Shown: positions 5,837-25,541 of the stretch, in pieces | Numbering within the stretch: the first letter of the stretch is position 1 | Layout: each line of letters starts with the position of its first letter | Notes under the pieces: model-generated | What the model saw: only the letters and a program-made list of their open reading frames with translations | Told to the model about the DNA's origin: nothing | Databases searched by the model: none | Program-made: the position numbers and the translations under genes | NCBI GenBank assembly: GCA_045568115.1 | Contig: JBJLBO010000005.1 | Location: 319,468-383,467 of the forward strand | Direction: 5' to 3' | Source of the DNA: Candidatus Thalassarchaeaceae archaeon | GTDB taxonomy: Archaea; Thermoplasmatota; Poseidoniia; Poseidoniales; Thalassarchaeaceae | DNA: 64,000 nucleotides

Positions 5837-5894
5837 AATGAATGTTGAATCATTTAGTCCGAATACTCAAACATTACCATCCAGTCGATGACAC

Positions 5895-7901
5895 ATGGGC
5901 GAGCGACGGGCGATGTTTGCATCATTGGCTCTAATGATGCTGTTAGCACCATTGGTTTCGTCTTCAATTTCAATCGAATCAACCATTAGAGGAGGACTAG
6001 ATACCAATGGTGATTGGACTTCGAGTGTTGAATCTGAAATTCATTGGAATTGGTGGACACACTGGAGCAGAGATAAGAACTCAAACTCTATTGACGATAG
6101 ATTGGAATGGTTAATTGATCAACCAGAGGAAAAACAGAGAGATTGGTGGCGGAGAGCTCCAGAAGGACATGCGAGAATTTTTGTCGATTATGACCATCAT
6201 CCCACTGATGCTGACATTTCGGCTCTTGAGAGACTAGGGGTCGAAGTTTCATTCCGCTTCAAATATCTAGATACAGTCTCAGCAACAGCTCCACTGACCT
6301 CAATAATTGACCCTGAAGGGATTCGATTACTTGCTGGCGTTGTCATGATTGAAGACCTAGGTCTCGCCGAGCCAAATATGCATGAAGCAGTGCCAAATAT
6401 GGGAGTAAATATGGTCTGGGAAGACCTAGGGCTTGATGGCACAGGTTCGGTTATAGCGGTGTTAGATACTGGAGTACGAGGAGATCACGAAGGACTCAAT
6501 GACATGGATGATGACCCTTTCACCTGTATTGATGACCCGCCTGACCCTCTAGACCCTAACCCTGAACCATTACCCGCCGATTGTGATCCAAAGATTATCG
6601 CGTTCTTCGATGCTGTAATTACTGACGAGGAACACGACCCTGCAGAATCCTATGATTCTGGAACTCATGGTAGTCATGTAGCTGGAATAGCCGCAGGAAG
6701 TGGAGGTGGCCAGACTGATCCATCAACCGACCTGAGATATGTTGGAGCAGCACCTGGTGCTTGGTTAATCAATATCCTCGCTTGTTGTGATGGCGACATT
6801 GAGGACATAATGCAAGGTGCTCAGTGGGCGATAGAAAATAAGGAAAAGTATGGAATCGATATTTTGACCTCATCGCTTGGTGAGCAGCAGTTCGAAATTC
6901 ATATCGACAATGACGGGAACTCTGCTTGGAGTAGACAAATGGACATGGTCGTCGAATCTGGAATCATCACTACACTTTCAGCAGGCAACGAATTTGGGGG
7001 AGCAACCTTCGCAGGTTGTAATACCATAGATAGCCCTGGAGACGCTGCTTTACCCGTGACTGTAGGGAGTCTTGATAAAGACCTAGGACTCGCAATTTAC
7101 AGCAGCCGAGGATATACATCTGACATGCGAGTAAAACCTGATGTCGCCACTATAGGATCCAGTATTATGGCGCCCGATGCAGCAACCAATGATGGATACA
7201 CAAGCAAGTCAGGGACCAGTATGGCTACTCCTCTAATGGCAGGAATTGCCGCTCTAATGGTTCAGGCAAACCCTGACTTGACTCCGACTGAATTCAAGGA
7301 CATAATTAGTGCATATTCAATTGAGAGAGAGTTAGTATTACTAGGTGATCCAGGGTTCAATGATTGCAGTATACTTGAAACTCGTCCTGACAACGAATTT
7401 GGATATGGCCAAGCAGATCCTATTGCTTTTGTAGAGGCCGCAGGTAGTATTGATCGTTCTCTCAACGTATCCATGGAAATCGAGACTCTGGAAGAAATTG
7501 GGAACGGAAGTGAGATTTTCGGCGAGGCCGTTGGAGCTCCTTCAGAATCTTCCAATGTCAGAGTTGAGGTTCGTGTTGGAGGTGGAAACTGGAAAGACGC
7601 ACAGGACAATTCAATGAATGGAGACTGGTCCATATGGAGTATCCAATTGGACCCACACAACGAGTCAGGAAACTCCACAATTTTCGCTAGGCTGTTTGTC
7701 GATGAAGAACACATCTCTCCGATAGATGCTAGAAGGGTGATTCTAATTGACGAAATGGCTGAATCTAGAGGAGAAGGAGATGGTGATCGTACAATCCTAT
7801 TTGCAATAGGTTTGGTTCTAATTATTACAATACCCTTAGTTGGTATCGGCCTTTACATTAGGAGCGACTCGTTCAGGAGTAGTTCGGACGATGTTGATTA
7901 A
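5895..7901 (+). CDS. Subtilisin-like (S8) serine protease, secreted and membrane-anchored by a C-terminal TM helix
   Basis: There is an N-terminal signal peptide (MFASLALMMLLAPLVSS). The catalytic triad lies in AVLDTGV, HGSHVAGIAAG and GTSMATPLMAG. A C-terminal hydrophobic helix (LFAIGLVLIITIPLVGIGLYI) is followed by a short charged tail. Confidence 0.8.
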   Translation: MGERRAMFASLALMMLLAPLVSSSISIESTIRGGLDTNGDWTSSVESEIHWNWWTHWSRDKNSNSIDDRLEWLIDQPEEKQRDWWRRAPEGHARIFVDYDHHPTDADISALERLGVEVSFRFKYLDTVSATAPLTSIIDPEGIRLLAGVVMIEDLGLAEPNMHEAVPNMGVNMVWEDLGLDGTGSVIAVLDTGVRGDHEGLNDMDDDPFTCIDDPPDPLDPNPEPLPADCDPKIIAFFDAVITDEEHDPAESYDSGTHGSHVAGIAAGSGGGQTDPSTDLRYVGAAPGAWLINILACCDGDIEDIMQGAQWAIENKEKYGIDILTSSLGEQQFEIHIDNDGNSAWSRQMDMVVESGIITTLSAGNEFGGATFAGCNTIDSPGDAALPVTVGSLDKDLGLAIYSSRGYTSDMRVKPDVATIGSSIMAPDAATNDGYTSKSGTSMATPLMAGIAALMVQANPDLTPTEFKDIISAYSIERELVLLGDPGFNDCSILETRPDNEFGYGQADPIAFVEAAGSIDRSLNVSMEIETLEEIGNGSEIFGEAVGAPSESSNVRVEVRVGGGNWKDAQDNSMNGDWSIWSIQLDPHNESGNSTIFARLFVDEEHISPIDARRVILIDEMAESRGEGDGDRTILFAIGLVLIITIPLVGIGLYIRSDSFRSSSDDVD

Positions 7902-8406
7902 CAAATCAGTAATTCTAGCTGCCGGAGCTAGTGAACGGCTAGGTGTCCCTAAAGCCTTAATCCAGGCTGGGGGTATGACGCTAATCGAAAGAGTAGCCCT
8001 AATGCTCAATGAAGTAGGACTCTCCGTGAATATAGTTACAAGATTATCATTGGTTGACTCAATCAGAGAATTAATCCCATATGCGAAAATAATTGTTAAT
8101 CCTAATCCAGAGTATGGGAGAACCGGTAGTCTCCAATGCGCATTAGGAATAATTGGAGATGGGCCACTAATTATGGCGCCTGTAGACCGACCCGGTTTCA
8201 GTAAATCTACATTAGAATTACTCTGTCAAAAAGATGAGACTGCCTGTCCAATTAGAAAAGATCGAGGAGGACATCCTATAGCAATAAGTTCCAAAGACAT
8301 AGGTGCAATTCTAAGAGCCGAACCAGACACACCTCTACGTGACATAATAACTCCAAGAAGAATAGAAGTAGAGGACCCTCATCTTACACCTCAACGTAGA
8401 CACTAG
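7891..8406 (+). CDS. MocA/MobA-like molybdenum cofactor nucleotidyltransferase (likely MCD cytidylyltransferase). An alternative upstream start lies at 7840.
   Basis: It carries the N-terminal nucleotidyltransferase motif SVILAAGASERLGVPKALIQAGGMTL and is about 170-188 aa, as in MocA. It sits next to xdhC and the coxSLM genes. Confidence 0.65.
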   Translation: MLINKSVILAAGASERLGVPKALIQAGGMTLIERVALMLNEVGLSVNIVTRLSLVDSIRELIPYAKIIVNPNPEYGRTGSLQCALGIIGDGPLIMAPVDRPGFSKSTLELLCQKDETACPIRKDRGGHPIAISSKDIGAILRAEPDTPLRDIITPRRIEVEDPHLTPQRRH

Positions 8407-8468
8407 AGGAGGATGTTAGAACTTCTCCTCAGAGGTGGTCAGTGACCTCGACAATCAGTGACTGAAGA

Positions 8469-9302
8469 TTAGCCAAAGGCCACATCTAGAACCATCATTA
8501 CTGCAAAACCAATCATTACCCCCATAGTAGCAATATCTCCGTTACCCCCCCGGTGTGCTTCTGGGATCAATTCTTCAACCACAACAAAAATCATTGCACC
8601 GGCAGCAAATGATAGAGCATAGGGTAGAATTGGAGTTGCTATAATTACCAAGGCCGCTCCCAAGACGGCAGCAACTGGTTCAACAGTAGCTGAAAGTTGA
8701 CCCCAAAGGAAACTGTCTCTACGAGATAGCCCCTCTCTACGAAGAGGTAGAGATACAGCGGCACCTTCCGGGAAATTCTGAATTCCAATTCCAATTGCTA
8801 GCGCAACCGCAGCACCCAATGTTGCCCCTTCAAAACCAGATGCAGCAGCGCCAAAAGCAACTCCAATAGCCAAACCTTCTGGAATATTGTGCAAAGTGAT
8901 TGCAGATACAAGAAGCATACTCCTCCGCCAAGTGTTTTCAATTCCTTCAGCCTCTTCAGGAGGTGCACCAGGATGCAAATGAGGCAGAAACATATCGATT
9001 AGCCTCATACATACACCTCCAAGCAAGAATCCAACCAAAGCAGGGAACCAAACTGGCAAATCTTTCCCTTCGGACATCTCCAGAGCAGGAGAAAGCAATG
9101 ACCAAAAACTCGCTGCAATCATTACTCCAGCTGCAAAACCTAGCATTGCATCGAGAACTTTTCTATCTAATTCCTTGAAGAAAATCACCAGAGCTGCGCC
9201 GGCCGCTGTCATGAACCAAGTAAAGAGCCCAGCAAGTAGTGCCTGTTGCACTGGGCCAAAGCCCTCGAAGAGTCCCACGACATCCATACAAACAAACGGC
9301 AA
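8469..9302 (-). CDS. zupT: ZIP-family divalent metal (Zn2+) transporter
   Basis: It has the ZIP signature [13 protein letters not shown] and eight predicted TM helices in 277 aa. Confidence 0.8.
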
Positions 9303-9319
9303 ATGGGCGCCTCTATCAA

Positions 9320-9337
9320 AGTTAGCCTAGGCTAACT
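9320..9337. promoter_or_regulatory. Perfect 18-bp palindrome AGTTAGCCTAGGCTAACT in the divergent intergenic region between zupT and xdhC. It is a candidate operator.
   Basis: Read directly from the sequence: the reverse complement is identical to the forward strand. It lies 18 bp from the zupT start and about 60 bp from the xdhC start. Confidence 0.4.
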
Positions 9338-9398
9338 CTCGGCCTTAATCGAAATGTTTTGAGGCCATACTCCAAAACTAGAACACATATCGCACTCC

Positions 9399-10232
9399 AT
9401 GACCAGCGCCACTCTTGCTTGGGTTCTCGAGCGACTGGCAAAGGGAGAGAGAGTTGCTCTAGCATCTGTTGTTGAAGCAAAAGGTAGTGTACCAGGGAAA
9501 CCAGGAGCACGATTGGCTATGAGCAATATTGGAGGAAGGCATGGTACTGTAGGAGGAGCCGGCCTAGAATTGAAAGTGGAAAAACATCTAAAGAAGATGC
9601 TAGAAAATGGTTCATCGGCTAGTAGAATTGAGAATTATGTCCTACATAGAGATGCAAAGGGCAAAGAAGCGACTGCCTTGGACAGTCTATGTGGCGGACA
9701 AGTATCGGTCTCATTGGAGGTTTTGGATCCTGTGCCTCACATACTAATATCAGGAGGAGGCCATTGCGGCCAAGCTATTGCTTCTGTTTGTGATAATCTG
9801 GGATGGTCTCACAGTGTTTACGACATACGAAGTGAGTTTGCAGATTCTGATTTATACCCTAATGCAATTGAAAATCACCATGGTGATGTGAAAGACTTTT
9901 TGGACTCTCTTCAGATAAAAAAAATAATTAGATTTTCTGATGTATTGCTCCTAGGACATGATTGGACTGTTGACCAAGAGATGCTAATTGGATTGCTTCT
10001 AGAGAGAGGAGATAATGATAGACCACGAATAGGAGCTATTGGCTCACGATCAAAGTGGAAGGCTTTCAGAAAGGCAGCAATAGACTCCGGAGTGAGTGAT
10101 TCGGCAATAGATTCAGTCCGCTGCCCGATAGGATTCAACATAGGAGCGGAGACTCCTGAAGAAATTGCAATCTCAGTCTGTGCGGAAATTATGGCCCTTG
10201 AGAAAGGAATTACCAGCAACTCCGAAGACTGA
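9399..10232 (+). CDS. xdhC: XdhC/CoxI-family molybdenum-hydroxylase maturation (Moco insertion) protein
   Basis: It has the XdhC_CoxI N-terminal domain (LASVVEAKGSVPGKPGARLAMSNIGGRHGTVGGAGLE) and a Rossmann-like C-terminal domain (ILISGGGHCGQAIASV). Confidence 0.75.
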   Translation: MTSATLAWVLERLAKGERVALASVVEAKGSVPGKPGARLAMSNIGGRHGTVGGAGLELKVEKHLKKMLENGSSASRIENYVLHRDAKGKEATALDSLCGGQVSVSLEVLDPVPHILISGGGHCGQAIASVCDNLGWSHSVYDIRSEFADSDLYPNAIENHHGDVKDFLDSLQIKKIIRFSDVLLLGHDWTVDQEMLIGLLLERGDNDRPRIGAIGSRSKWKAFRKAAIDSGVSDSAIDSVRCPIGFNIGAETPEEIAISVCAEIMALEKGITSNSED

Positions 10233-10258
10233 AAGAGTAAGCAACCCGCCGGAAGGAC

Positions 10259-11476
10259 ATGAGAGGTTGCGCGTTAGCTCTGATTCTAATTATCACTAGC
10301 GCTTCAATAAGTGGTTGTCTTTGGAATAATAAAGAATCTATAGAAGAGCCTATTCTCAATGAAGATAATTTTCGTGAGTTCACAGTAGTCGCGCCTATTG
10401 ATACAGGAATAAATGTCTATCATGACCATTTCAGAGTTAATGAAACTCTACCGGAATGGATTCTGAATTCATTCGGAGTCACAATGACATGTAACCTAAC
10501 ATTCGAAGGAACTTGGGATGAAAGATACGAAGCAGATAAAGAGACTTGTTGGGATTTGATAACTTCTGAAGATATTGTCTATTTCCCTGGAACAAGAATA
10601 ATTGGCGCTACTCCTGATGATGATACTGAAATTCCAATACTTGATGACCCCTCTGATGGGCACGGAACGGCAGTGACAGGAGCTGTTCTAAATGCTAATC
10701 CTGAGGCAATAATTTTCTTTGTCGAAGGATTCTCTGATGCTGCGGTACTTGCTGCTGCGAATCAACCCCTAGTCGATATAATCACAACTAGTTTTGGACC
10801 TATTGGTTCAATCCCAGTTCCAGGGATTGAGGATGCCACGAAAGTCGCTGTTGTAGAGAAAGGAAAGCTCCACACGGGTGCTTCGGATAATACCCCATCC
10901 CCTGCAATTCAAGATTCCACTGCAGGTCCGCCTTGGAGTATTGGAATATCAGGATATGCAGAAGAGGAGGATGACCAGAAAGAAACCATGAGTGGTTCCT
11001 ATCCAGATGCGGCTGCAGATTGGACTCAAGTACTGCCAAACCATGATGATATAGATGGATATCATCAGACTAGTGGCACATCATTTGCAACGCCTCGTAC
11101 AGCAGGACTTATCTCAAAAGTCATTCAAACTCTAAGGTTGGAATTTGGAGATAATTCCTCTGGTGCAGAAAGTGATACAAGACAAGGTTTGTTAGTTAAT
11201 GGAAGTAATTTCTCATTGACTAATGATGAAATCAGAAATGCATTGAATATTTCTGCATGGTATCCTAGTTCAAGTACTTGGGATCCAACCACAGGAACAT
11301 TACCAATCTCACCAGTTGCACCATGCACACAGGTAGGATGGGGAGTTGTTAACGAATCAAACGTACAACCAATGATTGAACATCTCAATGGAACCAATCA
11401 AATGCCAGATAGACCATTTGATGTAGTTCAGTGCATGGAAACAAATCAAGCAATTCGTGAAGCATATTGGAATTAG
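10259..11476 (+). CDS. S8-family subtilase, probable lipoprotein
   Basis: There is a lipobox-like signal (ITSASISGCLWNN). The catalytic residues lie in VVAPIDTGINVYHDHF, DGHGTAVTGAV and GTSFATPRTAG. Confidence 0.7.
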   Translation: MRGCALALILIITSASISGCLWNNKESIEEPILNEDNFREFTVVAPIDTGINVYHDHFRVNETLPEWILNSFGVTMTCNLTFEGTWDERYEADKETCWDLITSEDIVYFPGTRIIGATPDDDTEIPILDDPSDGHGTAVTGAVLNANPEAIIFFVEGFSDAAVLAAANQPLVDIITTSFGPIGSIPVPGIEDATKVAVVEKGKLHTGASDNTPSPAIQDSTAGPPWSIGISGYAEEEDDQKETMSGSYPDAAADWTQVLPNHDDIDGYHQTSGTSFATPRTAGLISKVIQTLRLEFGDNSSGAESDTRQGLLVNGSNFSLTNDEIRNALNISAWYPSSSTWDPTTGTLPISPVAPCTQVGWGVVNESNVQPMIEHLNGTNQMPDRPFDVVQCMETNQAIREAYWN

Positions 11477-11538
11477 CCTCACAAATCAACAAACAATAGT
11501 TCCGGTGGCTTGATTACGAGTTCTCCTATACGGAACCA

Positions 11539-12186
11539 ATGCGCAAGGTAGTCCTGAGGTGGAGAATTAACTCACTTCAAGGTGCTAAGGAGCTTGGGAA
11601 AATATTAGAAATCTGTGATAGGATAGAGATTCTAGCACACTTAGGATTTCAGGATGGTGGAATAGTTCAACTTGCAGAGGTAAAACTCAAACAAGGAAAA
11701 GATGTGAATGAACTCTCAAATTTACCTAGTTTCGAAGTGCTAGAAATTCATGAAGAAAATGAGGAAGGTGTCCTACTAAGCCTATTATGCCATCACACTC
11801 TTGCGAAATCTGCAATCGAATTCTCAAATTTGCATCTTCAATGTCCTTACAGCATTGATTCAGAAAAAGGAATGGAGCTGAGAGTGACTGGATTGACCAC
11901 CGCAATGCGACGATTCCTAAACCTCCTCCGCCTCGTACTTCCTCCTGACAAAGTAAGTGTGATTACAGATAAATCGAAACATGTAAATGGATGGGCTGAG
12001 GTGCTAACTAAAAGACAACAAGAAGTAATCCAGCATGCAGTTCGTAGAGGCTATTATGACAATAATGGAAATTCAAGAATAAAGGATTTAGCAGAAGAGC
12101 TTGGCATTTCTCGATCTACCTATGGTGGCCACCTTAGTGAGGCTGAAAAGGCAATTCTGAAGAAAGTCGGTTCGGACCTTGAATGA
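11539..12186 (+). CDS. HTH_10 (Bat/bacterio-opsin-activator-type) transcriptional regulator
   Basis: It has the C-terminal HTH_10 motif RQQEVIQHAVRRGYYDNNGNSRIKDLAEELGISRSTYGGHLSEAEKAILKKV and lies directly upstream of coxS. Confidence 0.7.
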   Translation: MRKVVLRWRINSLQGAKELGKILEICDRIEILAHLGFQDGGIVQLAEVKLKQGKDVNELSNLPSFEVLEIHEENEEGVLLSLLCHHTLAKSAIEFSNLHLQCPYSIDSEKGMELRVTGLTTAMRRFLNLLRLVLPPDKVSVITDKSKHVNGWAEVLTKRQQEVIQHAVRRGYYDNNGNSRIKDLAEELGISRSTYGGHLSEAEKAILKKVGSDLE

Positions 12187-12239
12187 GTCCATAGGACTCA
12201 ACCGAAGCGTAATAGGACAACCATGAGTGGATTCGATGC

Positions 12240-12809
12240 ATGGTGCAGCACCGGCTTCCAATGCTTCCCTCTGCGAGGGAAGTTCCTTGGGCATCCTTGG
12301 TGAATGGTGTTGAGAAGCAGCTAAACATCGAGGGAAATGCGATTCTGCTCGATGTTCTTCGTGATCAAGCAGGGAGTTTGGGCACGAAGCGAGGCTGCGA
12401 TATGGGGACTTGTGGATGCTGCTCGGTACTGATTGATGGGCAGCCTCGACTCTCCTGTTTGACGCTTGCAGCGGAGGCAGATGGTTGTGAGATTACGACT
12501 GTTGAAGGTCTTGCTGAGGGACACCATCTTCATCCGATTCAAGAGATGTTTGCGGAGTGCGGTGGGTCGCAGTGCGGCTTCTGCACTCCGGGATTCCTGG
12601 TTGTTACATCAGCGCTATTGGATGAGAATCCAAATCCTAGCGACGATGAAATCAAGTGTGCAATCGAAGGAAATCTTTGCCGCTGCACCGGTTACCAACA
12701 AATTGTAGATTCGGTACGAGCGGCATCTGAAATTTTGACTTCGGGCAAGAATATCGAGGATTCAACCTCGCCAAAGAGTGACCCTCATCCGGGATTCGCT
12801 GGAGAGTGA
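12240..12809 (+). CDS. coxS: Molybdenum hydroxylase small subunit, [2Fe-2S] ferredoxin-like (CoxS/XdhA family)
   Basis: Plant-type and second 2Fe-2S motifs are present: CDMGTCGCCSVLIDGQPRLSC, GGSQCGFCTPGF and CRCTGYQQIV. Confidence 0.85.
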   Translation: MVQHRLPMLPSAREVPWASLVNGVEKQLNIEGNAILLDVLRDQAGSLGTKRGCDMGTCGCCSVLIDGQPRLSCLTLAAEADGCEITTVEGLAEGHHLHPIQEMFAECGGSQCGFCTPGFLVVTSALLDENPNPSDDEIKCAIEGNLCRCTGYQQIVDSVRAASEILTSGKNIEDSTSPKSDPHPGFAGE

Positions 12810-12813
12810 TTTG

Positions 12814-15618
12814 ATGGCTGGATCAGAGGATAATCCATCCGGTGATAAGAATGAGGATGAGATGGTCGGCTACCGGCAGCAGCCGGGAAAGTTGCCTTTC
12901 TCAAAACCCGGCTCTGGTGGCAAAAATCGATTCTCTCGGCCGACGGATGCAGCGATGATTCCCGAGTCCCAAGGTGGTCAAAAGAGCCAGCCTTGGGGGT
13001 CACATCGTCACGATGAATTGGTCAGTGGCCAGATAATCGGTAAGCCAACAGCATTGGTCGACAGTCGCTGGAAGGTGACTGGGCAGGCTCACTATGGAGA
13101 CGATGTGCGCTTGGCCGGCGAGTTGATTGGACGCATCATTCGCTCGCCGCATCATTATGCTAGAGTGCTAAGCATCGATTGCTCAAAAGCACTCGAATTG
13201 CCCGGCGTCGTAGCCATCGCTACTGGAGCCGATGCCGCCAATAAATTCGGAGTCCTACCTGTCACCAAAGACGAGCACGCCATGGCAGTTGAGAAAGTCC
13301 GCCACGCTGGTGACCTCGTCGCTTGCGTGGCAGCCGAAGATGAAGCGACGGCACGCGAGGCCGAGCGTTTGATCGAAGTCGAATACGAAATCCTCGATTC
13401 AATCCACGATATGCGCGACGGTCTCGATGATTCAGAAAATCCAATCCACGACCGCGGAAAGTATCACATCGGAGAGGCGAATGTTCAGAAGCGAGTTTTT
13501 CAGGAGTTCGGCGACATCGATGGAATGGCTTCGAGTGCGGTCGCCAGTCACAAGCAAAATTGGTTGTTCGCGGGTGTGAATCACGCTGCGACTGAGCCTC
13601 ATGCTGTGGTTGCTCACTGGGACCCCTCGGGTCGATTGACGCTCTACACACCTCAACAAGTCCCTCACTATGTCCACAGAGCTCTGGCCGACGTACTCGA
13701 GATTCCTATGCATCAGATCAATGTGCACCGCACCTTTGTCGGTGGTGGGTTTGGAGGCAAGTCCGACCCGTTTCCGCATGAGATGTGTGCCGCTATTTTG
13801 GCGCGGAAATCTGGGCGTCCGGTGCGGATTTGCTTCGACCGCGAAGAAGTCTACTGGATCAATCGCGGTCGCCACCCCTCACGTATCGAGATGAATCTGC
13901 ACGCGGATTCGGATGGGAGAATCTGTGGAATCGAAACTGATGCTCTGATTGATGGTGGCGCGTTCGCCTCATTCGGCCACGTCACGACTTATTACAATGG
14001 GGTGCTACACACCGCGCCATACGAAATTGGAGCATTCCATTACACAGGAGCTCGCGTCTGGACGAATAAACCAGCAAGTGGTGCGATGCGAGGTCATGGT
14101 GCTGTGAATTCACGCTGCGCGGTTGAGACGGGGTTGGATGACCTATCCGAGCAACTCGCCGTCGATCCGATTACCCTGAGATTGGCCAACTTGTTACCAC
14201 CACACTCAGCGACAATCACCGGCTTCCGCGTGACTAGTATCGGTATGCGCGAATGTCTCGAGCGAGTGAAAGAAGCCAGTGGCTGGGACGAAAAATTCCG
14301 TAAGATGCCACTGGGCAAAGGAATCGGCATTGGCTGTGGATTCTTCATCTCCGGCTCAGGCCTGCCGATTCATTGGGATCCAAACAAGTTCCCACATGCG
14401 ACGGTGCACCTGAAAATCGACATGGATGGAGGTGTCACCGTCCACACAGGAGCAGCGGAAATTGGCCAAGGCTCCGACACCGTCGTTGCCCAATCCGTTG
14501 CCGAAGTCCTCGGACTTCCTCTCGACATGATTCGAATCAAATCCCGAGACTCCGATACATCACCCGTCGACCTCGGATCTTACTCATCGCGCGTCACTTT
14601 CATGAATGCAAACGCGGCGATTTCTGCAGCCATGCAAATACGCGATAATCTGCTAGACGCAACCGTAGAAATCACAGGCGCCGACCGTGCGAAATTAGTC
14701 CTAGGAGATAGGCGTATCTTCGCCAAAAACGACCCCGCAGTTGGGGTCTCATACCTTGAGGCACTCCACAAAGCGCAGGAAGACCGAGGAGCACTCATCG
14801 CATCGGGCGCATACAGAACCCCACCGATGGGACGAACCCACAAGGGTGCTGCCGCCGGCTTAGCGCCGGCTTACTCATTCTCAGCTTACGTTGCAGAGGT
14901 GTCCGTCGACGTAGAAACCGGGCAAACAAAGGTGGAGAAAGTCTGGGCTGCCCACGATTGTGGTAAGGCACTCAATCCACTTGCAGTCAAGGGGCAAATC
15001 ATCGGCTCCTGCCACATGGGAATGGGGCAAGTTCTCAGCGAAGAAATGCGCTACGGCCGTGGTGGCCATTTGATGAATCCCGACCTGCTCGATTACAAGA
15101 TTCCTAGCGTCCACGAGATGCCGGAAGTCGTACCGATTATTGTTGAATCAAACGACCCAGAAGGGCCGTTTGGGGCGAAGGAAGCGGGCGAAGGCCCACT
15201 TCTACCAATTTTGCCCGCTGTCTGTAATGCAGTGTATGATGCAGTGGGCGTGAGGACTGCTGAATTGCCAATCACGCCCGATCGCATGCACAGATTGATC
15301 GAAAGGAAATGCAAGGCCGATGGAGTCTCTGAGCCTCTCGACCTTGAAGCACCGCGGCTCGAGCACTCGGCTCTGCAGGATACTCTCGCCGAGCGCGCTG
15401 CCGAGCATGCTGAACGAGACCTCACTCGCAGGCTCGATGATGACCGCCAGCCCTACCACAATGGAGCGCTCTTCGGACTCGACCCAACAATCCCTCCTGA
15501 CGAGATAAATGAGCGCTGGGCGGTCAATTTGATTCCATCTGAAGAATACATCACGGAGCCACGTTTGGCTGGAAGCGCTTGGAAGCACACTGAGCGCCGA
15601 CATCGAGGTGATGCCTGA
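12814..15618 (+). CDS. coxL: Molybdenum hydroxylase large subunit (molybdopterin-binding, CoxL/XdhB family) with about 70-aa N-terminal and about 100-aa C-terminal extensions
   Basis: The Ald_Xan_dh hammerhead starts at IGKPTALVDSRWKVTGQAHYGDD. Moco-binding segments include GGGFGGK, AHDCGKALNPLAVKGQIIG and EGPFGAKEAGEGPLL. The ATG at 12814 immediately follows the coxS stop at 12807-12809. Confidence 0.85.
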   Translation: MAGSEDNPSGDKNEDEMVGYRQQPGKLPFSKPGSGGKNRFSRPTDAAMIPESQGGQKSQPWGSHRHDELVSGQIIGKPTALVDSRWKVTGQAHYGDDVRLAGELIGRIIRSPHHYARVLSIDCSKALELPGVVAIATGADAANKFGVLPVTKDEHAMAVEKVRHAGDLVACVAAEDEATAREAERLIEVEYEILDSIHDMRDGLDDSENPIHDRGKYHIGEANVQKRVFQEFGDIDGMASSAVASHKQNWLFAGVNHAATEPHAVVAHWDPSGRLTLYTPQQVPHYVHRALADVLEIPMHQINVHRTFVGGGFGGKSDPFPHEMCAAILARKSGRPVRICFDREEVYWINRGRHPSRIEMNLHADSDGRICGIETDALIDGGAFASFGHVTTYYNGVLHTAPYEIGAFHYTGARVWTNKPASGAMRGHGAVNSRCAVETGLDDLSEQLAVDPITLRLANLLPPHSATITGFRVTSIGMRECLERVKEASGWDEKFRKMPLGKGIGIGCGFFISGSGLPIHWDPNKFPHATVHLKIDMDGGVTVHTGAAEIGQGSDTVVAQSVAEVLGLPLDMIRIKSRDSDTSPVDLGSYSSRVTFMNANAAISAAMQIRDNLLDATVEITGADRAKLVLGDRRIFAKNDPAVGVSYLEALHKAQEDRGALIASGAYRTPPMGRTHKGAAAGLAPAYSFSAYVAEVSVDVETGQTKVEKVWAAHDCGKALNPLAVKGQIIGSCHMGMGQVLSEEMRYGRGGHLMNPDLLDYKIPSVHEMPEVVPIIVESNDPEGPFGAKEAGEGPLLPILPAVCNAVYDAVGVRTAELPITPDRMHRLIERKCKADGVSEPLDLEAPRLEHSALQDTLAERAAEHAERDLTRRLDDDRQPYHNGALFGLDPTIPPDEINERWAVNLIPSEEYITEPRLAGSAWKHTERRHRGDA

Positions 15619-16607
15619 TGCGTACACCACCATTCGAGTTGCACACGCCCAAGAACCTCGAGGAGGCTCTCGCCACAGCAGGTGAGTTAGCCGACGCTGG
15701 CCAAGACTTCGACTGGATCGCCGGCGGCACTGACCTGCTGCCCAATTACAAGTGGCACATCAACGTCAAACCACACGTGATTTCTCTGGCCAAAGTCAGT
15801 GAACTCACCGAGCTCAATCCAAACCATATCGGCGCAATGGTCAGACTACATGACCTAGTCAAGTCAGAACACACACACACAGTCCTCGCCAAAGCCGCCG
15901 ACTCAATCGCCAGCGTACTCATCCGCCGCTCTGGAACCGTCGGCGGCAACATCTGCCTCGACACCCGATGCTATTGGTTCAACCAGACCGAGCAGTGGAG
16001 AGAATCGATTGACTGGTGCTACAAATGCGACTGCGGAACGGGGGCCGACTGCCGCGTCATACCAAACCAGAATACACTCTGCGTCGCCACCTACCAAGCC
16101 GACCTTGCTCCGGTCCTGTTGTGCCTAGGTGCAACCATTCACCTCGCTTCACCGGACGGCAAACGCTCGATGCCACTCAGCGAATTTTTCCAACTCGACG
16201 GGATGACTCGCAATGTGCTGCAGCCCGGCGAGTTGGTCACTCACCTGAGCCTACCCGATGATTCCGGTGAGTGGCAAGGAGATTACCAGAAGTTGAGGCA
16301 GCGCGAGTCCTGGGATTTCCCAGAAGCTGGTGTAGCGGTACTTTGGAAGCAAAATGGTGGAGCGAAACCTGCTGCTCTCAGAGTTGCAACAACTGGACTC
16401 GAATCGGTTCCTGGATTTCATACGGAAGAAGCCGAATCTGCCTTGGCAGAGTGGAATGGTGAAGATTCCATAAACAATTTAGCCGAAGCAATCCGCAAAT
16501 CGGTGAAACCTGTACAAAACACATGGTACGCGCCTTCGTATAGGAGAAAGATGGTGAAGGTGTTAACACGCCGAGCATGTGTAGGACTACTGGAGGAATT
16601 GTCATGA
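15618..16607 (+). CDS. coxM: Molybdenum hydroxylase FAD-binding subunit (CoxM/HcrB family) with a Cys-rich insertion
   Basis: The FAD_binding_5 motifs are IAGGTDLLPNYK and GTVGGNIC. A 40-aa insertion, DTRCYWFNQTEQWRESIDWCYKCDCGTGADCRV, sits after the GGN motif. The start overlaps the coxL stop. Confidence 0.8.
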   Translation: MRTPPFELHTPKNLEEALATAGELADAGQDFDWIAGGTDLLPNYKWHINVKPHVISLAKVSELTELNPNHIGAMVRLHDLVKSEHTHTVLAKAADSIASVLIRRSGTVGGNICLDTRCYWFNQTEQWRESIDWCYKCDCGTGADCRVIPNQNTLCVATYQADLAPVLLCLGATIHLASPDGKRSMPLSEFFQLDGMTRNVLQPGELVTHLSLPDDSGEWQGDYQKLRQRESWDFPEAGVAVLWKQNGGAKPAALRVATTGLESVPGFHTEEAESALAEWNGEDSINNLAEAIRKSVKPVQNTWYAPSYRRKMVKVLTRRACVGLLEELS

Positions 16608-17545
16608 ATTCGAAATTTTTGGTTCTAATTATGGCGTCAACCCTCCTCATCCCCTTTGCATCTACTGTTGTTGCTCAACCAGATCAGCCAACTTTACCCG
16701 GCTGGGATTTAGGGATTCTCTACGAAGACGATGAGGAAACACCTTTCATGGTTGAAAACAACGGCGAGGTCACCCTTGATTTCTGGATAGATAATCAGAA
16801 TCCATACTCAATAATGTTAGAATTAGAATATGAAGTGCCTTGGGAGGCAAAAAATAATGGCGAAGGAAATGTTTCATTAGACTCAGGTGAAAATGTAACA
16901 TTCTCATTGACCATTTCAGATATTGATGTATTCTCTATTGCAGCGAAGAGTGAGGAGCCATTTACAATAACTGCAACTCTGCAAGAGAGGGGGGGGATAC
17001 CTGTTTTCCCCGAATCAAAGGAAGCTAATGGAGAACTAGAGATTCCTGAAATTTTCGACTTGAGAATTGAAATTGATGACCCACTTGGTCCAGTTAACTC
17101 TGGAACTGATTATATCCTAAAGGTAACCGTTTCCAATGAAGGAAATTCGCAAGACAAAGCAAGTGAAATTGAAGTTACTGATGACTGCCCACTATTGACT
17201 ACTGATGATGCACTACAAGCTATTACAAGTAGAACTCTAGAATCTGGAGCTAAGACTGAGGCAAATCTCAAAATTTCTGCATCTGAGAGTCATCCTTCTA
17301 GGTCTTGTAAGATAGAAGTTACTGTCAAATCAAAAGGTGCTGCAGGAACGCAATTATCAACAGACAATACTAGAGTAAATATTGAATCTTCGCCTCAAAA
17401 TCAGGAAGATCCAGAAGAAAATAATGATGATGAAAATGAAAGCCCGACAGAGATTGTTTCATCTAACCTTCCAGCACCTGGAATAAGTATTATTTTCAGT
17501 ATTTTAATCGGAGCATTATTTTCAATTTCATCAAGACGATTCTAA
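16604..17545 (+). CDS. Secreted acidic surface protein with a PGF-CTERM-like C-terminal anchor
   Basis: It has a signal peptide MNSKFLVLIMASTLLIPFASTVVAQ and the C-terminus PAPGISIIFSILIGALFSISSRRF. Its ATG overlaps the coxM stop (ATGA). Confidence 0.55.
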   Translation: MNSKFLVLIMASTLLIPFASTVVAQPDQPTLPGWDLGILYEDDEETPFMVENNGEVTLDFWIDNQNPYSIMLELEYEVPWEAKNNGEGNVSLDSGENVTFSLTISDIDVFSIAAKSEEPFTITATLQERGGIPVFPESKEANGELEIPEIFDLRIEIDDPLGPVNSGTDYILKVTVSNEGNSQDKASEIEVTDDCPLLTTDDALQAITSRTLESGAKTEANLKISASESHPSRSCKIEVTVKSKGAAGTQLSTDNTRVNIESSPQNQEDPEENNDDENESPTEIVSSNLPAPGISIIFSILIGALFSISSRRF

Positions 17546-17729: not shown

Positions 17730-19319
17730 ATGGCTCCCAAAAAGACTGAGGATACTAACTTCACAAACATGGTTGTTGGTTCAATTTCAGTCACTGTAGT
17801 TCTGCTATTGATTTTACCAATGATTTTTGTTGTTGGTAAGGATACATACTACTCCGCCTACTCTGAAGGTGGTGATACCAAAGTTGAGGCATTGGCCCAA
17901 GTCACCGACATGAGAAATACACTTTCAGATGACGAATATTTCATTGCAAACACCATGTCTACACCGATGCTAGTAAATGACTGGAGAGATCCACACCGAA
18001 CTGCGTTAATGATAATAGGGCCTGAGAAACCAATTTCGCAAACAGAAGCAGATTCAATTTATGATTTTGTTACAGAAAAGGGTGGAAAGGTGATTGTTGC
18101 TGCTGATGGAACAAATGCAAATCGGTTAGCAGAAAAATTCGGCGTCACATTTTTTGATGCACCATTAAACGATGAAAACCAGTTTTGGTTAGAATATGAG
18201 ACAGGAGAGGCAGTATCTGGATCTTGGCTGAATGTGTGGAGTCTAGCAGCAGTTTCCGAGGATGTTAACGAAATGTCTCTTGCACACCAGAGACAAGGAT
18301 GCAAGGATGTTGATGTGTTTGAGGAGAATAGATTCAACTGCCGACTACCAGTTATGTTCCGATCACCTACTGGGATGAAATATGAACCTACAGCAGAAGA
18401 TAAATCGAATCCTGGACATCGTGACGTTGACATTCTTGCCACTGCATCTTCATCAGCATTTATTGACATAGAGGGAAATTCAAGGGCTGATGACCCCAAG
18501 AATCCAGCACCTGGTGATTTAGCACTAATAATTCGAATTGATTATTCCAATATCACAACTTTCGACAGAGTCGTAACTGATTCGGGAAATATTGTTGGTA
18601 ATAATATCGATGAACTCCAAGTGACGGGGAGCATTGTCTTTGTCTCAGACGAAGAGGCCTTCTCAAATCGAATGTGGGATCTCGCGGCTGCAAAAAATGA
18701 AAAAATGAGTGAAAGTTGTGAGCAGCACACAGGCCACTGTTGGCTTGATGTAACAAAAGAAACATTATGGGAAGGAAATGAAAAGTACTTCTCACTATTG
18801 ATTGATGACATAATGGAACATGATAACAAAGAATTAGTAAAATCTATTCGTGAGGACAGGGGTGAATTTCAGATTGTATTTGATGAAAGTAGGCATGTTA
18901 CAGGAGTTATCTCAGCTCCATTCATAGAATCTATGGGCACTGTAGTTCTTCTAACTTCAAACACATTCCTTAAGTGGTTAGTTGTACTGAATGTCGGACT
19001 TCTTTTATTGGTCGCAATGATGGTTGTTCCTGAGAAAGAAAATTGGCGTCATGTTTTTGACCTCACTCGATTTAAGGAAAGGCCAGAAAAGTTGGATCCA
19101 TCCAGTTATCGAATTAGGGTGCAGCAGGCTTTGTTTACTAAGGTTAGAGTTCACTATGATTTGACCCGAGATCAAATGGCAATAAAACCACCTGCTGAAG
19201 TTCAAACTATGATTGGAGATCCAAGATTAGTAGAATTGGCTTATAGCCAAAGCAGAAAATATACTCCCCAGGAATTGAGGCAGCTGATGGTTGCAATTAG
19301 ACGCTGGGGTAAAAACTAA
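17730..19319 (+). CDS. Membrane-anchored protein, DUF4350-like, encoded as the partner of the MoxR/DUF58 genes
   Basis: It has an N-terminal TM helix, an extracytoplasmic domain with LMIIGPEKPISQTEADSIYDFVTEKGGKVIVAADG, then a second TM and a cytoplasmic tail. It is immediately upstream of moxR, 18 bp before it. Confidence 0.45.
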   Translation: MAPKKTEDTNFTNMVVGSISVTVVLLLILPMIFVVGKDTYYSAYSEGGDTKVEALAQVTDMRNTLSDDEYFIANTMSTPMLVNDWRDPHRTALMIIGPEKPISQTEADSIYDFVTEKGGKVIVAADGTNANRLAEKFGVTFFDAPLNDENQFWLEYETGEAVSGSWLNVWSLAAVSEDVNEMSLAHQRQGCKDVDVFEENRFNCRLPVMFRSPTGMKYEPTAEDKSNPGHRDVDILATASSSAFIDIEGNSRADDPKNPAPGDLALIIRIDYSNITTFDRVVTDSGNIVGNNIDELQVTGSIVFVSDEEAFSNRMWDLAAAKNEKMSESCEQHTGHCWLDVTKETLWEGNEKYFSLLIDDIMEHDNKELVKSIREDRGEFQIVFDESRHVTGVISAPFIESMGTVVLLTSNTFLKWLVVLNVGLLLLVAMMVVPEKENWRHVFDLTRFKERPEKLDPSSYRIRVQQALFTKVRVHYDLTRDQMAIKPPAEVQTMIGDPRLVELAYSQSRKYTPQELRQLMVAIRRWGKN

Positions 19320-19337
19320 AAAAATGGAGAGAAGAAA

Positions 19338-20372: not shown

Positions 20373-20404
20373 AATAATTGATTCTAGATTAGGAATGTGA
20401 GCCA

Positions 20405-21721: not shown

Positions 21722-21727
21722 GGAGGA

Positions 21728-23754: not shown

Positions 23755-23756
23755 AC

Positions 23757-25537: not shown

Positions 25538-25541
25538 ATCA

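What the first reader, a model, noticed from the sequence alone, without database searches (positions are those of the whole stretch)
7840..16607. Molybdenum-hydroxylase island (mocA-like, xdhC, HTH_10 regulator, coxS-coxL-coxM) with elevated GC and atypical CoxL extensions
The coxSLM genes are visibly more GC-rich than flanking genes. Sampled stretches run about 55-58% GC in coxL versus 38-45% in the MoxR cluster and regulator genes. Very long antisense ORFs are a by-product of that composition. CoxL carries a ~70-aa N-terminal and a ~100-aa C-terminal extension that canonical large subunits lack. The full maturation set is clustered: MocA-like cytidylyltransferase, XdhC, a dedicated Bat-type regulator, plus a partial MoeB-rhodanese E1 at the window start. 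The following PGF-anchored surface protein is translationally coupled to coxM (ATGA overlap). Together this suggests a laterally acquired, self-contained Moco enzyme module of unknown substrate.
Basis: seen in the sequence. Interest (0 to 1): 0.5.

Follow-up and report, generated by a model that had tools for sequence, protein, structure and literature searches.

The report
Swapped hydroxybenzoyl-CoA-reductase-like genes in marine archaeon
The GC-rich "cox" genes are a 4-hydroxybenzoyl-CoA-reductase-type molybdenum enzyme found throughout Marine Group II archaea, and in this genome a copy from a related, GC-richer species has replaced the three structural genes in place.

Summary
The three structural genes (12,240-16,607) have GC 0.52-0.55 and GC3 0.48-0.59. 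Forty other ORFs in the window have mean GC3 0.335, so z = 3.0-5.4. The 64-aa N- and 98-aa C-terminal extensions of the large subunit and the ATGA overlap are also confirmed.

1. This is not CO dehydrogenase. All three subunits are closest to 4-hydroxybenzoyl-CoA reductase (HcrCAB, PDB 1RM6). The FAD subunit carries the ~40-aa [4Fe-4S] loop with all four cysteines.
2. The locus is not a foreign island. The window comes from a Marine Group II archaeon (Thalassarchaeaceae). The locus is syntenic across the family, and 486 relatives were found among species-representative genomes.
3. Only ~12,170-16,450 is foreign. That stretch is 94-96% identical in DNA to a GC-richer sister clade (L009-L011). 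The flanks are ~70% identical to every relative. MocA-like, XdhC and HTH_10 genes have native composition.
4. Eight independent assemblies confirm both junctions, so a chimera is unlikely.
5. The extensions are conserved across the family, absent from outgroups, and the C-terminal one is predicted to fold.

The substrate is unproven. No CoA ligase or benzoyl-CoA enzyme lies nearby.

The parts
62..607 (+). 3' part of a ThiF/MoeB-type E1 with a rhodanese domain (context; native composition)
   Evidence: Pfam ThiF C-terminus plus Rhodanese. The full-length 388-aa orthologue sits at the same position in L001/L002. GC3 0.34.
7840..8406 (+). MobA-like NTP transferase, probably the MocA-type cytidylyltransferase that makes the MCD cofactor (native gene)
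   Evidence: PF12804, E = 5e-22. TIGR03310 MocA scores 58.8 bits, below its 186-bit cutoff. Syntenic in L001 and L006.
8469..9302 (-). ZIP metal permease, replaced by an ArsP_2 permease in other lineages
   Evidence: PF02535, E = 6e-25. L001 has ArsP_2 at this position and L006 has Zip.
9399..10232 (+). XdhC-family Moco insertion chaperone (native gene)
   Evidence: XdhC_CoxI plus XdhC_C. GC3 0.33. 62-74% nt identity to L011.
10259..11476 (+). Weak subtilase-like protein conserved between xdhC and the regulator in some lineages
   Evidence: PF00082, E = 4e-7. Present in L001 and L011, absent in L006 and L014.
11539..12186 (+). HTH_10 transcription regulator directly upstream of the enzyme genes (native gene); the left crossover lies in its last codons
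   Evidence: PF04967 at residues 156-207. GC3 0.32. An identical protein occurs in many independent assemblies. Breakpoint alignment.
12170..16450 (.). Replaced block of about 4.3 kb derived from a GC-richer Thalassarchaeaceae lineage
   Evidence: Sliding nt identity to L011 is 0.91-0.98 inside and 0.55-0.75 outside. Whole-block identity to L010 / L009 / L011 is 96.4 / 95.9 / 93.9%. Edges are mapped. GC3 z = 3.0-5.4.
12240..12809 (+). Small subunit (HcrC-like gamma) with two [2Fe-2S] clusters
   Evidence: Fer2 plus Fer2_2. 1RM6_C at 154 bits. TIGR03193 at 173 bits, cutoff 258.
12814..15618 (+). Large molybdopterin subunit (HcrA-like alpha), 934 aa. N-extension: residues 1-73 (nt 12814-13032). 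C-extension: residues 833-934 (nt 15310-15615).
   Evidence: 1RM6_A at 635 bits and 44% identity; next structure 280 bits. TIGR03194 at 820 bits; next family 522. The model matches 1RM6 with TM 0.97 and rmsd 1.6 A. Extension motifs are conserved.
15618..16607 (+). Medium FAD subunit (HcrB-like beta) with the inserted [4Fe-4S] loop (Cys118, 134, 145, 155; nt ~15969-16082); overlaps the alpha stop by one base (TGATG)
   Evidence: 1RM6_B at 156 bits, with the four Cys aligned to HcrB C122/C138/C146/C155. They are invariant in six orthologues and outgroups. The FAD_binding_5 profile (168 positions) spans 210 residues. Junction sequence.
16604..17545 (+). 313-aa secreted or anchored protein (CARDB / DUF11 / choice-of-anchor-T-like), start overlapping the hcrB stop (ATGA); native composition
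   Evidence: Sequence; families. GC3 0.28. Only 51% aa identity to the L006 orthologue.
17730..22651 (+). Conserved downstream module: 529-aa DUF4350-like protein, MoxR AAA+ ATPase, DUF58, 307-aa protein (native; always follows the enzyme genes)
   Evidence: Families. Synteny.

Best explanation
The window comes from a Marine Group II archaeon (Poseidoniales, family Thalassarchaeaceae, near genus MGIIb-O1). Genes 12240-16607 encode a three-subunit xanthine-oxidase-family molybdoenzyme of the 4-hydroxybenzoyl-CoA reductase type.

Subunits:
- Gamma carries two [2Fe-2S] clusters.
- Alpha carries the molybdenum cytosine-dinucleotide cofactor.
- Beta carries FAD and an extra [4Fe-4S] cluster on a ~40-residue inserted loop.

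Mechanism, inferred by analogy with the Thauera enzyme:
- Electrons from a low-potential donor such as ferredoxin enter at the [4Fe-4S] cluster.
- They pass through FAD and the two [2Fe-2S] clusters to molybdenum.
- At molybdenum a phenolic hydroxyl para to an electron-withdrawing group is removed as water. The best candidate substrate is 4-hydroxybenzoyl-CoA or a similar aryl thioester.
- The neighbouring MobA-like transferase would make the cytosine dinucleotide cofactor. XdhC would insert it. The HTH_10 protein would regulate transcription.

Evolution:
- The locus is an old, vertically inherited and strongly constrained part of the family genome (dN/dS 0.03-0.05).
- The alpha subunit has two lineage-specific, conserved extensions.
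- In this genome's lineage, homologous recombination replaced ~4.3 kb with the allele of a GC-richer sister clade (represented by L009, L010 and L011). This stretch runs from the last codons of the regulator gene to the 3' part of hcrB, so it covers the three structural genes.
- That replacement alone explains the GC jump.

Status of each claim:
- Shown: family assignment, the FeS loop, synteny, the mosaic and its junctions.
- Inferred: direction of electron flow, substrate, and roles of the accessory genes.
For: Enzyme type:
- Alpha matches 1RM6_A at 635 bits, 44% identity over 751 residues; the next solved structure scores 280 bits.
- NCBIfam best hits are the 4-HBCR alpha and beta models (820 and 234 bits), far above the next families (522 and 125).
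- The AlphaFold model (pLDDT 87.6) superposes on 1RM6 with TM 0.97 and rmsd 1.6 A. CODH and quinoline oxidoreductase give rmsd 3.4-3.9 A.
- The beta insertion has four Cys aligned to HcrB C122/C138/C146/C155, invariant in six sequences.
- The catalytic Glu (Thauera E726) is conserved as E793.
- A 52%-identical bacterial relative sits among benzoyl-CoA reductase, CoA-ligase and thiolase genes.

Native locus:
- Homologues at 77-99% identity, all 917-955 aa, are named Thalassarchaeaceae or Poseidoniales.
- Synteny is conserved.
- hcrA GC3 tracks flank GC3 in about 70 species, with delta from -0.065 to +0.054. In the window delta is about +0.23.

Replacement:
- The block is 94-96% nt identical to L009-L011, while the flanks are 66-77% identical to every relative.
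- Among 1126 locus pairs, block-minus-flank identity has mean +0.030 and sd 0.025. The window-L011 pair is +0.213.
- hcrA dS to L010 / L009 / L011 is 0.15-0.24. Flank synonymous sites are saturated against L006, L001 and L004.
- In L011 the block matches its own flanks in GC3 (0.53 against 0.52).
- Breakpoints are mapped.

Not a chimera:
- Five assemblies carry the left junction at 98-100% identity.
- Three carry the right junction at 99.7-100%.
- No contig joins the native flank to a low-GC allele.

Other:
- There are no tRNA genes or boundary repeats at the block edges, and no integrase domain among the ORFs scanned.
Against: Enzyme assignment:
- All three subunits score below NCBIfam's equivalog cutoffs for 4-HBCR: 820 against 995, 234 against 405, and 173 against 258.
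- For the gamma subunit, the glyceraldehyde-dehydrogenase model scores marginally higher (179 bits).
- No 4-hydroxybenzoate-CoA ligase, benzoyl-CoA reductase or Box gene occurs in the 64-kb window or in the +/-10-kb flanks of relatives.
- MGII are regarded as aerobic surface-ocean heterotrophs, whereas characterised 4-HBCR works in anaerobic aromatic degradation (own knowledge). The physiological substrate and reaction direction are therefore open.
- The extensions and two extra Cys in the FeS loop show that this is not a plain orthologue.

Replacement:
- No single independent contig spans flank-block-flank; all of them break inside the block.
- One contig (L089) has a window-type flank but carries a different block allele, 97% identical to L011. 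That indicates either repeated exchange or an assembly switch.
Confidence: 0.75

Rival explanations
1. Assembly chimera. The 64-kb sequence wrongly joins the flanks of a low-GC population to the hcrCAB of a co-occurring GC-richer population, because assemblers switch paths inside this highly conserved operon.
For: Every independent short-read contig that carries the flanks ends inside the block. L089 switches to an L011-like allele after ~12,500. L009 and L010 are isolated 5-kb contigs consisting of little more than the block.
Against: Both junctions recur at 98-100% identity in eight contigs from different samples and several assembly sources (k141-, NODE- and scaffold-named ENA contigs, JGI, Logan). 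L090-L092 extend 640-700 bp past the left crossover. L095 extends ~400 bp past the right one. No contig links the native flank to a low-GC allele. Breaks inside the block are what a sequence truly shared between co-occurring populations would produce.
Confidence: 0.07
2. Vertical inheritance with gene-specific codon bias. The enzyme genes are GC3-rich because of expression-linked codon selection or slower drift toward AT, with no transfer.
For: The genes are highly conserved (dN/dS 0.03-0.05). A few other conserved genes in the window are mildly GC3-rich, for example aconitase at 0.45.
Against: In about 70 related species hcrA GC3 equals flank GC3 within +/-0.065, slightly lower on average. 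Equally conserved MoxR and DUF58 have GC3 of 0.32-0.36 here. Codon bias cannot produce 94-96% nt identity to one clade when the flanks are ~70% identical.
Confidence: 0.03
3. The whole of 7840-16607 (MocA-like, XdhC, regulator, coxSLM) is a self-contained Moco module acquired from outside the lineage.
For: Function-related genes are clustered and GC is elevated in part of the interval.
Against: The accessory genes have native GC3 and ordinary divergence. The same gene order occurs across Thalassarchaeaceae. The nearest non-MGII homologues are at most 56% identical and lack the extensions. No mobility genes or tRNA are present.
Confidence: 0.04
4. Same enzyme clade, different chemistry. In these aerobic archaea the complex acts on another substrate (a different para-substituted phenol or aryl-CoA), or runs oxidatively as a hydroxylase that passes electrons out through the [4Fe-4S] cluster. 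It would not be a 4-hydroxybenzoyl-CoA reductase.
For: Scores fall below the equivalog cutoffs. There is no CoA-ligase or benzoyl-CoA gene context. The extensions and extra loop cysteines are lineage-specific. A second reductive member of this family, Ucdh, acts on a non-CoA phenol (10.1101/2025.01.17.632430). E. coli PaoABC is an oxidative enzyme with a comparable [4Fe-4S] in its FAD subunit (own knowledge; 5G5G is a hit).
Against: 44% identity and 1.6 A rmsd to the Thauera enzyme are much closer than Ucdh's 32.7%. A 52% relative lies in a bona fide benzoyl-CoA cluster. MG-II transcripts for benzoyl-CoA oxygenase boxB have been reported, which would give benzoyl-CoA an aerobic fate (PMC5069720).
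Confidence: 0.4
5. It is an aerobic carbon-monoxide dehydrogenase (CoxSLM), as the gene names in the finding imply.
For: It shares the three-subunit architecture. CODH structures are the second-best hits (280 bits).
Against: CODH models score 293-321 bits against cutoffs of 950-991. The segment that aligns with the CODH active-site-loop region reads GAMRGHG. Gene order is gamma-alpha-beta. The FAD subunit has the [4Fe-4S] insertion, which CODH lacks.
Confidence: 0.01

Closest known systems
4-hydroxybenzoyl-CoA reductase HcrCAB of Thauera aromatica (PDB 1RM6/1SB3); HbaBCD of Rhodopseudomonas palustris
   Same: It has the same three subunits in the same gene order. Alpha is 44% identical (TM 0.97, rmsd 1.6 A) and beta 35% identical. 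The ~40-aa beta insertion carries the four [4Fe-4S] cysteines. The catalytic Glu is conserved, and MCD-type maturation genes lie nearby.
   Different: Alpha has a 64-aa N-terminal and a 98-aa C-terminal conserved extension. The FeS loop has a 3-residue insertion that adds two cysteines. Scores fall below the equivalog cutoffs. The host is an archaeon regarded as aerobic, and no CoA-ligase or benzoyl-CoA reductase genes lie nearby.
Urolithin C dehydroxylase Ucdh of Enterocloster bolteae (xanthine-oxidase-family phenol dehydroxylase)
   Same: It belongs to the reductive branch of the family related to 4-HBCR, has three subunits, and depends on XdhC (10.1101/2025.01.17.632430).
   Different: Ucdh is 32.7% identical to 4-HBCR. 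The MGII enzyme is 44% identical, so it is closer to the CoA-ester enzyme. No direct comparison with Ucdh was run.
Aerobic CO dehydrogenase CoxSML / CutSML
   Same: It shares the xanthine-oxidase-family fold and the [2Fe-2S] / FAD / Moco subunit set. A MoxR-type ATPase lies downstream, loosely resembling coxD.
   Different: Identity is 25-29% and rmsd 3.3-4.1 A. The FAD subunit has the extra FeS loop. The large subunit scores far below the CODH model cutoffs. The MoxR-DUF58 module here is a generic conserved module.
E. coli periplasmic aldehyde oxidoreductase PaoABC (5G5G)
   Same: Its FAD subunit also binds a [4Fe-4S] cluster (own knowledge). PaoB is the second-best structural hit for beta, at 80.6 bits.
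   Different: Alpha scores only 233 bits against PaoC. The MGII enzyme has no Tat signal and is not periplasmic. PaoABC oxidises aldehydes.
Homologous (allelic) replacement of core genes between related prokaryotic species
   Same: The swap is like for like, inside conserved synteny. The crossovers lie in locally conserved sequence, no mobile-element hallmarks are present, and the compositional mismatch has not yet been eroded.
   Different: Donor and recipient flanks are ~30% diverged in DNA, which is unusually distant for homologous exchange. The case comes from an uncultured planktonic archaeon.

Membership tests
4-hydroxybenzoyl-CoA reductase (HcrCAB/HbaBCD) clade of the xanthine oxidase family | The large subunit is most similar to HcrA among all characterised family members | tested here: met
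   1RM6_A scores 635 bits; the next structure scores 280. TIGR03194 scores 820 bits; the next family scores 522. Foldseek gives TM 0.97 and rmsd 1.6 A.
4-hydroxybenzoyl-CoA reductase (HcrCAB/HbaBCD) clade of the xanthine oxidase family | A ~40-residue insertion in the FAD subunit with four cysteines that bind an extra [4Fe-4S] cluster | tested here: met
   The FAD_binding_5 profile (168 positions) spans 210 residues. Cys118/134/145/155 align to HcrB C122/C138/C146/C155 and are invariant in six sequences. The presence of the cluster itself is inferred.
4-hydroxybenzoyl-CoA reductase (HcrCAB/HbaBCD) clade of the xanthine oxidase family | Scores above the curated equivalog cutoffs (TIGR03194 / 03195 / 03193) | tested here: not met
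   820 against 994.55, 233.9 against 404.55, and 173.2 against 257.8 bits. It is a related subfamily, not a certified equivalog.
4-hydroxybenzoyl-CoA reductase (HcrCAB/HbaBCD) clade of the xanthine oxidase family | [quoted passage not shown] | tested here: met
   Fer2 plus Fer2_2. The order 12240 / 12814 / 15618 on one strand matches hcrCAB (own knowledge for Thauera) and relatives L098 and L099.
4-hydroxybenzoyl-CoA reductase (HcrCAB/HbaBCD) clade of the xanthine oxidase family | Conserved active-site glutamate near Mo (Thauera E726) | tested here: met
   FGAKEAGEG aligns with FGAKEASEG, so E793 corresponds to E726. It is invariant in 50 sequences.
4-hydroxybenzoyl-CoA reductase (HcrCAB/HbaBCD) clade of the xanthine oxidase family | Genomic association with 4-hydroxybenzoate-CoA ligase and a benzoyl-CoA-consuming pathway | tested here: not met
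   None was found in the 64-kb window or in the +/-10 kb around orthologues. It is present around the 52% bacterial relative. Whole MGII genomes could not be searched.
4-hydroxybenzoyl-CoA reductase (HcrCAB/HbaBCD) clade of the xanthine oxidase family | Ferredoxin-dependent reductive dehydroxylation of 4-hydroxybenzoyl-CoA | not testable with these tools
   This needs an enzyme assay.
Aerobic CO dehydrogenase (CoxSML, forms I/II) | Large subunit reaches the CODH model cutoff and carries the CODH active-site loop | tested here: not met
   TIGR02416 scores 293 against 991 and NF040766 scores 321 against 950. The segment aligned to the CODH loop region reads GAMRGHG.
Horizontally acquired genomic island | Compositional deviation from the host genome | tested here: met
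   GC3 z = 3.0-5.4, but only for 12240-16607.
Horizontally acquired genomic island | Phylogenetic incongruence with the flanking genes | tested here: met
   Block identity to L011 is 0.946, against 0.70-0.75 for the flanks. The pair lies 7 sd above the mean of 1126 pairs.
Horizontally acquired genomic island | Brings gene content new to the lineage; bounded by tRNA, integrase or direct repeats | tested here: not met
   Orthologues occupy the same site across the family. No tRNA, mobility gene or boundary repeat is present. It is an allelic replacement, not an island.

The most novel reading that the evidence does not exclude
Marine Group II archaea are among the most abundant archaea of the oxic surface ocean. 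They may all carry a distinct, strongly constrained variant of 4-hydroxybenzoyl-CoA reductase. It has conserved N- and C-terminal alpha extensions and a cysteine-enriched [4Fe-4S] loop. On this reading the variant lets a normally anaerobic, ferredoxin-driven phenol dehydroxylation run in oxic or micro-oxic cells. Lignin-, algal- or tyrosine-derived 4-hydroxybenzoyl-CoA would be fed into an aerobic benzoyl-CoA (Box) pathway. That would be an unrecognised hybrid route for aromatic dissolved organic matter, and the main reason Moco biosynthesis is core in this order.
Probability: 0.2. Interest if true: 0.75.

Novelty: new variant of a known kind. Interest (0 to 1): 0.42.

Why it matters
1. It corrects a label. 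A gene set that looks like "cox" in abundant marine archaea is a 4-hydroxybenzoyl-CoA-reductase-type enzyme. Pipelines such as JGI's already give it that name. Four literature searches found no paper that links the enzyme to MGII. The phylogenomic study that reports Moco biosynthesis as core in Poseidoniales names nitrate reductase as an example of a molybdenum enzyme, but no xanthine-oxidase-family client.

2. The enzyme is near-universal in the family, under strong purifying selection, and carries conserved additions found nowhere else. That makes it a concrete candidate for how MGII process phenolic compounds.

3. The GC anomaly is a clean, datable example of operon-scale homologous replacement between diverged species of an uncultured archaeal group (dS 0.15-0.24, against saturated flanks). 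It also shows how such shared segments fragment metagenome assemblies.

Tried and rejected
- **C-extension as a fused small subunit.** A 141-aa gene sits between alpha and beta in the 56% bacterial relative L098. BLASTP against the extension gave E = 5.5, so I dropped the idea.
- **A 42-aa ORF between hcrA and hcrB in L006-type loci.** It looks spurious and is absent here, where the two genes overlap by one base.
- **Codon-bias explanation of the GC3.** The 70-species comparison rejects it.
- **hcrCAB as a general recombination hotspot.** Among 1126 pairs only the pairs that include the window stand out, so this is not supported among species representatives.
- **Mobile-element signatures.** There is no tRNA near the block. 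Repeats are short and chance-like. Promoter and terminator scans are at shuffle level.
- **Pathway partners in the window.** I found no CoA ligase, benzoyl-CoA reductase or Box genes.
- **Literature linking 4-HBCR with MGII, Poseidoniales or marine Euryarchaeota.** Nothing relevant turned up. The 2004 structure paper is not held, so the substrate-channel residues could not be compared.
- **Exact look-up of the window's HcrB.** It is not on record.

Full report
**Observation**

The window averages 44.2% GC. The 1-kb windows between 12 and 16 kb reach 50-56.5%.

Per gene, GC3 is 0.479, 0.564 and 0.594 for ORFs 12240-12809, 12778/12814-15618 and 15618-16607. Forty other ORFs in the window have mean 0.335 and sd 0.048, so z = 3.0, 4.8 and 5.4.

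The rise is confined to these three genes. The MobA-like transferase (7840-8406), XdhC (9399-10232), an S8-like gene (10259-11476) and the HTH_10 regulator (11539-12186) have ordinary GC3 of 0.26-0.33. So does the 313-aa gene that follows (0.28).

The ATGA overlap at 16604-16607 is real. The antisense ORFs (84-147 aa) are no longer than those in the low-GC flanks. The likely start of the large subunit is ATG 12814, just after the small-subunit stop.

**What the enzyme is**

The large subunit matches Thauera aromatica 4-hydroxybenzoyl-CoA reductase alpha (1RM6_A) at 635 bits, with 44% identity over 751 residues. The next solved structure, a CO dehydrogenase, scores 280 bits.

NCBIfam ranks the 4-HBCR alpha and beta models first by a wide margin: 820 against 522 bits for alpha, and 234 against 125 for beta. 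All three subunits stay below the equivalog cutoffs.

The medium subunit carries an insertion of about 42 residues within the FAD_binding_5 domain. Its four cysteines align one-to-one with the [4Fe-4S] ligands C122, C138, C146 and C155 of HcrB. They are invariant in MGII orthologues and in two bacterial outgroups. From my own knowledge of the 2004 structure paper, this insertion is the most pronounced difference between 4-HBCR and other structurally characterised members of the family. E. coli PaoB has a comparable cluster.

An AlphaFold model of the alpha subunit (pLDDT 87.6, pTM 0.89) superposes on 1RM6 with TM 0.97 and rmsd 1.6 A. CO dehydrogenases and quinoline oxidoreductase give rmsd 3.3-4.1 A. 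The CODH models score less than a third of their cutoffs. The "cox" naming is therefore wrong. The genes are hcrC-, hcrA- and hcrB-like.

**Whose genome, and is the locus foreign?**

The best homologues are 77-91% identical in the protein database and up to 99% in GTDB genomes. All come from Marine Group II archaea, named Candidatus Thalassarchaeaceae, Poseidoniales or MGIIb-O1. The GTDB species representatives hold 486 relatives.

The neighbourhood is syntenic across relatives. The order is:

- ThiF-rhodanese
- fused E1
- Na/Ca exchanger
- acyl-CoA dehydrogenase and S8 peptidase (in the window and L006, not in L001)
- MobA-like transferase
- a permease
- XdhC
- S8-like gene (in some lineages)
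- HTH_10
- hcrCAB
- a ~315-aa surface protein
- a ~530-aa protein
- MoxR
- DUF58
- a ~310-aa protein
- shikimate genes on the other strand

The stretch from hcrCAB to the shikimate genes is kept even where the upstream side differs. The locus is therefore ancestral to the family, not an island.

**Source of the GC anomaly**

In about 70 species, hcrA GC3 follows the GC3 of its own flanks across a range of 0.21-0.70. The difference runs from -0.065 to +0.054. Only the window departs from this, by about +0.23.

BLASTN and sliding-window identity show a sharp mosaic:

- From about 12,190 to 16,300 the window is 91-98% identical to L011 (MGIIb-O1-LRMED-022).
- Outside that stretch it is only 55-75% identical to L011 and to every other relative.

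Over the whole block, identity is 96.4% to L010, 95.9% to L009, 93.9% to L011 and 82% to L012. It is at most 77% to all other relatives.

Across 1126 locus pairs, block-minus-flank identity averages +0.030 (sd 0.025). The window-L011 pair is +0.213, and the window-L012 pair is +0.116.

In L011 the block matches its own flanks in GC3 (0.53 against 0.52). The short L009 and L010 contigs have L011-like upstream sequence (90-93% identity, GC 0.51-0.53). That clade is therefore the donor lineage or close to it.

hcrA dS is 0.15-0.24 to this clade. Synonymous sites in the flanking genes are saturated in the comparisons with L006, L001 and L004. dN/dS is 0.03-0.05.

The left crossover lies at about 12,168-12,175, in the last codons of the regulator gene. 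The right crossover lies at about 16,300-16,450, inside the 3' part of hcrB. Both fall in locally conserved sequence. No tRNA, mobility gene or boundary repeat is present.

This is a homologous, like-for-like replacement of the three structural genes.

**Chimera check**

The exact window-type regulator protein occurs on contigs from many assemblies. Five of these contigs continue 180-700 bp into the GC-rich hcrC/hcrA at 98-100% identity.

Three other contigs start 200-550 bp inside hcrB and run into the native downstream flank at 99.7-100% identity.

None links the native flank to a low-GC allele.

All of these contigs break inside the block. That is the expected behaviour if near-identical copies are shared by co-occurring populations.

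One contig (L089) has the window's flank but an L011-like block allele: 97.2% to L011 and 94.7% to the window. That means either a second exchange or an assembly switch.

I put the chimera explanation at about 7%.

**The extensions**

Relative to Thauera HcrA, the alpha subunit has 64 extra N-terminal and 98 extra C-terminal residues.

Both extensions are conserved across MGII orthologues at 77-91% identity. The motifs are:

- N-terminal: GYRQQPGKLPFxKPGSGG ... IPESQGG ... QPWGxHRHD
- C-terminal: YHNGALFGxDP ... W ... P..EY ... PRLAGSAWKHTERRH

Nearly all of the 150 best cluster representatives outside MGII, which are at most 56% identical, align only to the core: query positions ~62-94 to ~825-839. 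The exception is a 453-aa fragment at 50% identity that keeps the N-terminal motif.

No Pfam domain covers the extensions.

In the model, residues 833-927 are confidently ordered (pLDDT 88-98), with a long helix at 854-874 and several short ones. Residues 1-40 are disordered, and 41-75 are of moderate confidence.

The extensions are therefore an old, functional feature of the MGII enzyme and are unrelated to the transfer.

MGII beta subunits also carry a three-residue insertion that adds two cysteines to the FeS loop: C-x-K-C-D-C.

**Function**

By analogy with the Thauera enzyme (own knowledge; reviewed in 10.1101/2025.01.17.632430), electrons from reduced ferredoxin would enter at the [4Fe-4S] cluster. 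They would then flow through FAD and the two [2Fe-2S] clusters to Mo-MCD, where a phenolic hydroxyl para to a thioester is removed.

For this reading:

- The fold and sequence are close to the Thauera enzyme.
- A 52% relative is embedded in a cluster of benzoyl-CoA reductase, CoA-ligase and thiolase genes.
- The window carries a 2-oxoacid:ferredoxin oxidoreductase at 53569-56399.
- A Red Sea metatranscriptome study reports high MG-II expression of benzoyl-CoA oxygenase boxB (PMC5069720). That would give benzoyl-CoA an aerobic fate.

Against this reading:

- Scores fall below the equivalog cutoffs.
- No ligase or benzoyl-CoA genes lie within reach of the data.
- The hosts are regarded as aerobic.
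- The structural additions are lineage-specific.

I rate "4-HBCR clade, reductive-type architecture" at about 0.85. I rate "substrate is 4-hydroxybenzoyl-CoA" at only about 0.35-0.4.

**Novelty and score**

The enzyme type and the process (allelic replacement) are both known kinds. New elements are:

- a family-wide, conserved variant with extensions and extra loop cysteines, in abundant aerobic archaea; the literature searched does not discuss it;
- a clean, datable inter-species operon swap in an uncultured archaeon.

This is of moderate interest.

Noticed in passing
window 5838-8345 (S8 peptidase gene 5895-7901): In five independent contigs whose sequence is ~99% identical to the window on both sides, the alignment breaks across this secreted subtilase gene (668 aa here, 691 aa there). 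It appears to be a strain-hypervariable surface or secreted protein.
   Followed up: no
window 49557-52283 (-), aconitase: This is the second compositional outlier: GC 0.52-0.53 over 50-52 kb, and GC3 0.45 against a mean of 0.335. It could be another exchanged core gene or an effect of conservation.
   Followed up: no
window 32698-35631 (-): A 977-aa protein with multiple EF-hand pairs and an LDL-receptor class A module has GC3 0.47. It is an unusual calcium-binding protein for an archaeon.
   Followed up: no
window 15969-16082 (HcrB residues 118-155); also L001, L004, L006: The MGII [4Fe-4S] loop has a three-residue insertion that gives two extra conserved cysteines (C134-x-K-C137-D-C139 ... 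C145). These are absent from Thauera and from the two bacterial relatives.
   Followed up: partly
L089-L097, L009, L010: Contigs from many metagenome assemblies end inside hcrCAB, or consist of little more than the block. Near-identical copies shared between co-occurring populations probably break the assemblies there.
   Followed up: partly
L089:10702-12648: This contig's flank is 99-100% identical to the window, but its hcrC/hcrA allele is 97.2% identical to L011 and only 94.7% to the window. Either a second exchange occurred in the same species or the assembly switched paths.
   Followed up: partly
L056 (JBJKZL010000002.1): This contig is labelled Candidatus Neomarinimicrobiota bacterium, yet it carries a typical MGII hcr locus (86% aa identity). 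It is probably mis-binned.
   Followed up: no
L006/L007:12757-12885, L008:7392-7520: The high-GC MGIIb lineage has a ~128-nt spacer, called as a 42-aa ORF, between hcrA and hcrB. In the window the two genes overlap by one base (TGATG).
   Followed up: partly
window 17730-22651 and 22648-26336 (-): The module of a DUF4350-like protein, MoxR, DUF58 and a 307-aa protein always follows hcrCAB. Archaeal shikimate-pathway genes (chorismate synthase, GHMP-type kinase, DHQ synthase II, DeoC-like) always follow that module on the opposite strand. MoxR and DUF58 are as conserved as HcrA (92-94% aa identity to L006).
   Followed up: partly
window 53569-56399: A two-subunit 2-oxoacid:ferredoxin oxidoreductase is encoded here. 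It could supply reduced ferredoxin, as the 2-oxoglutarate enzyme does for 4-HBCR in Thauera (own knowledge).
   Followed up: no
window 42388-48783 (-): A 2131-aa ORF lies here. It was not examined.
   Followed up: no
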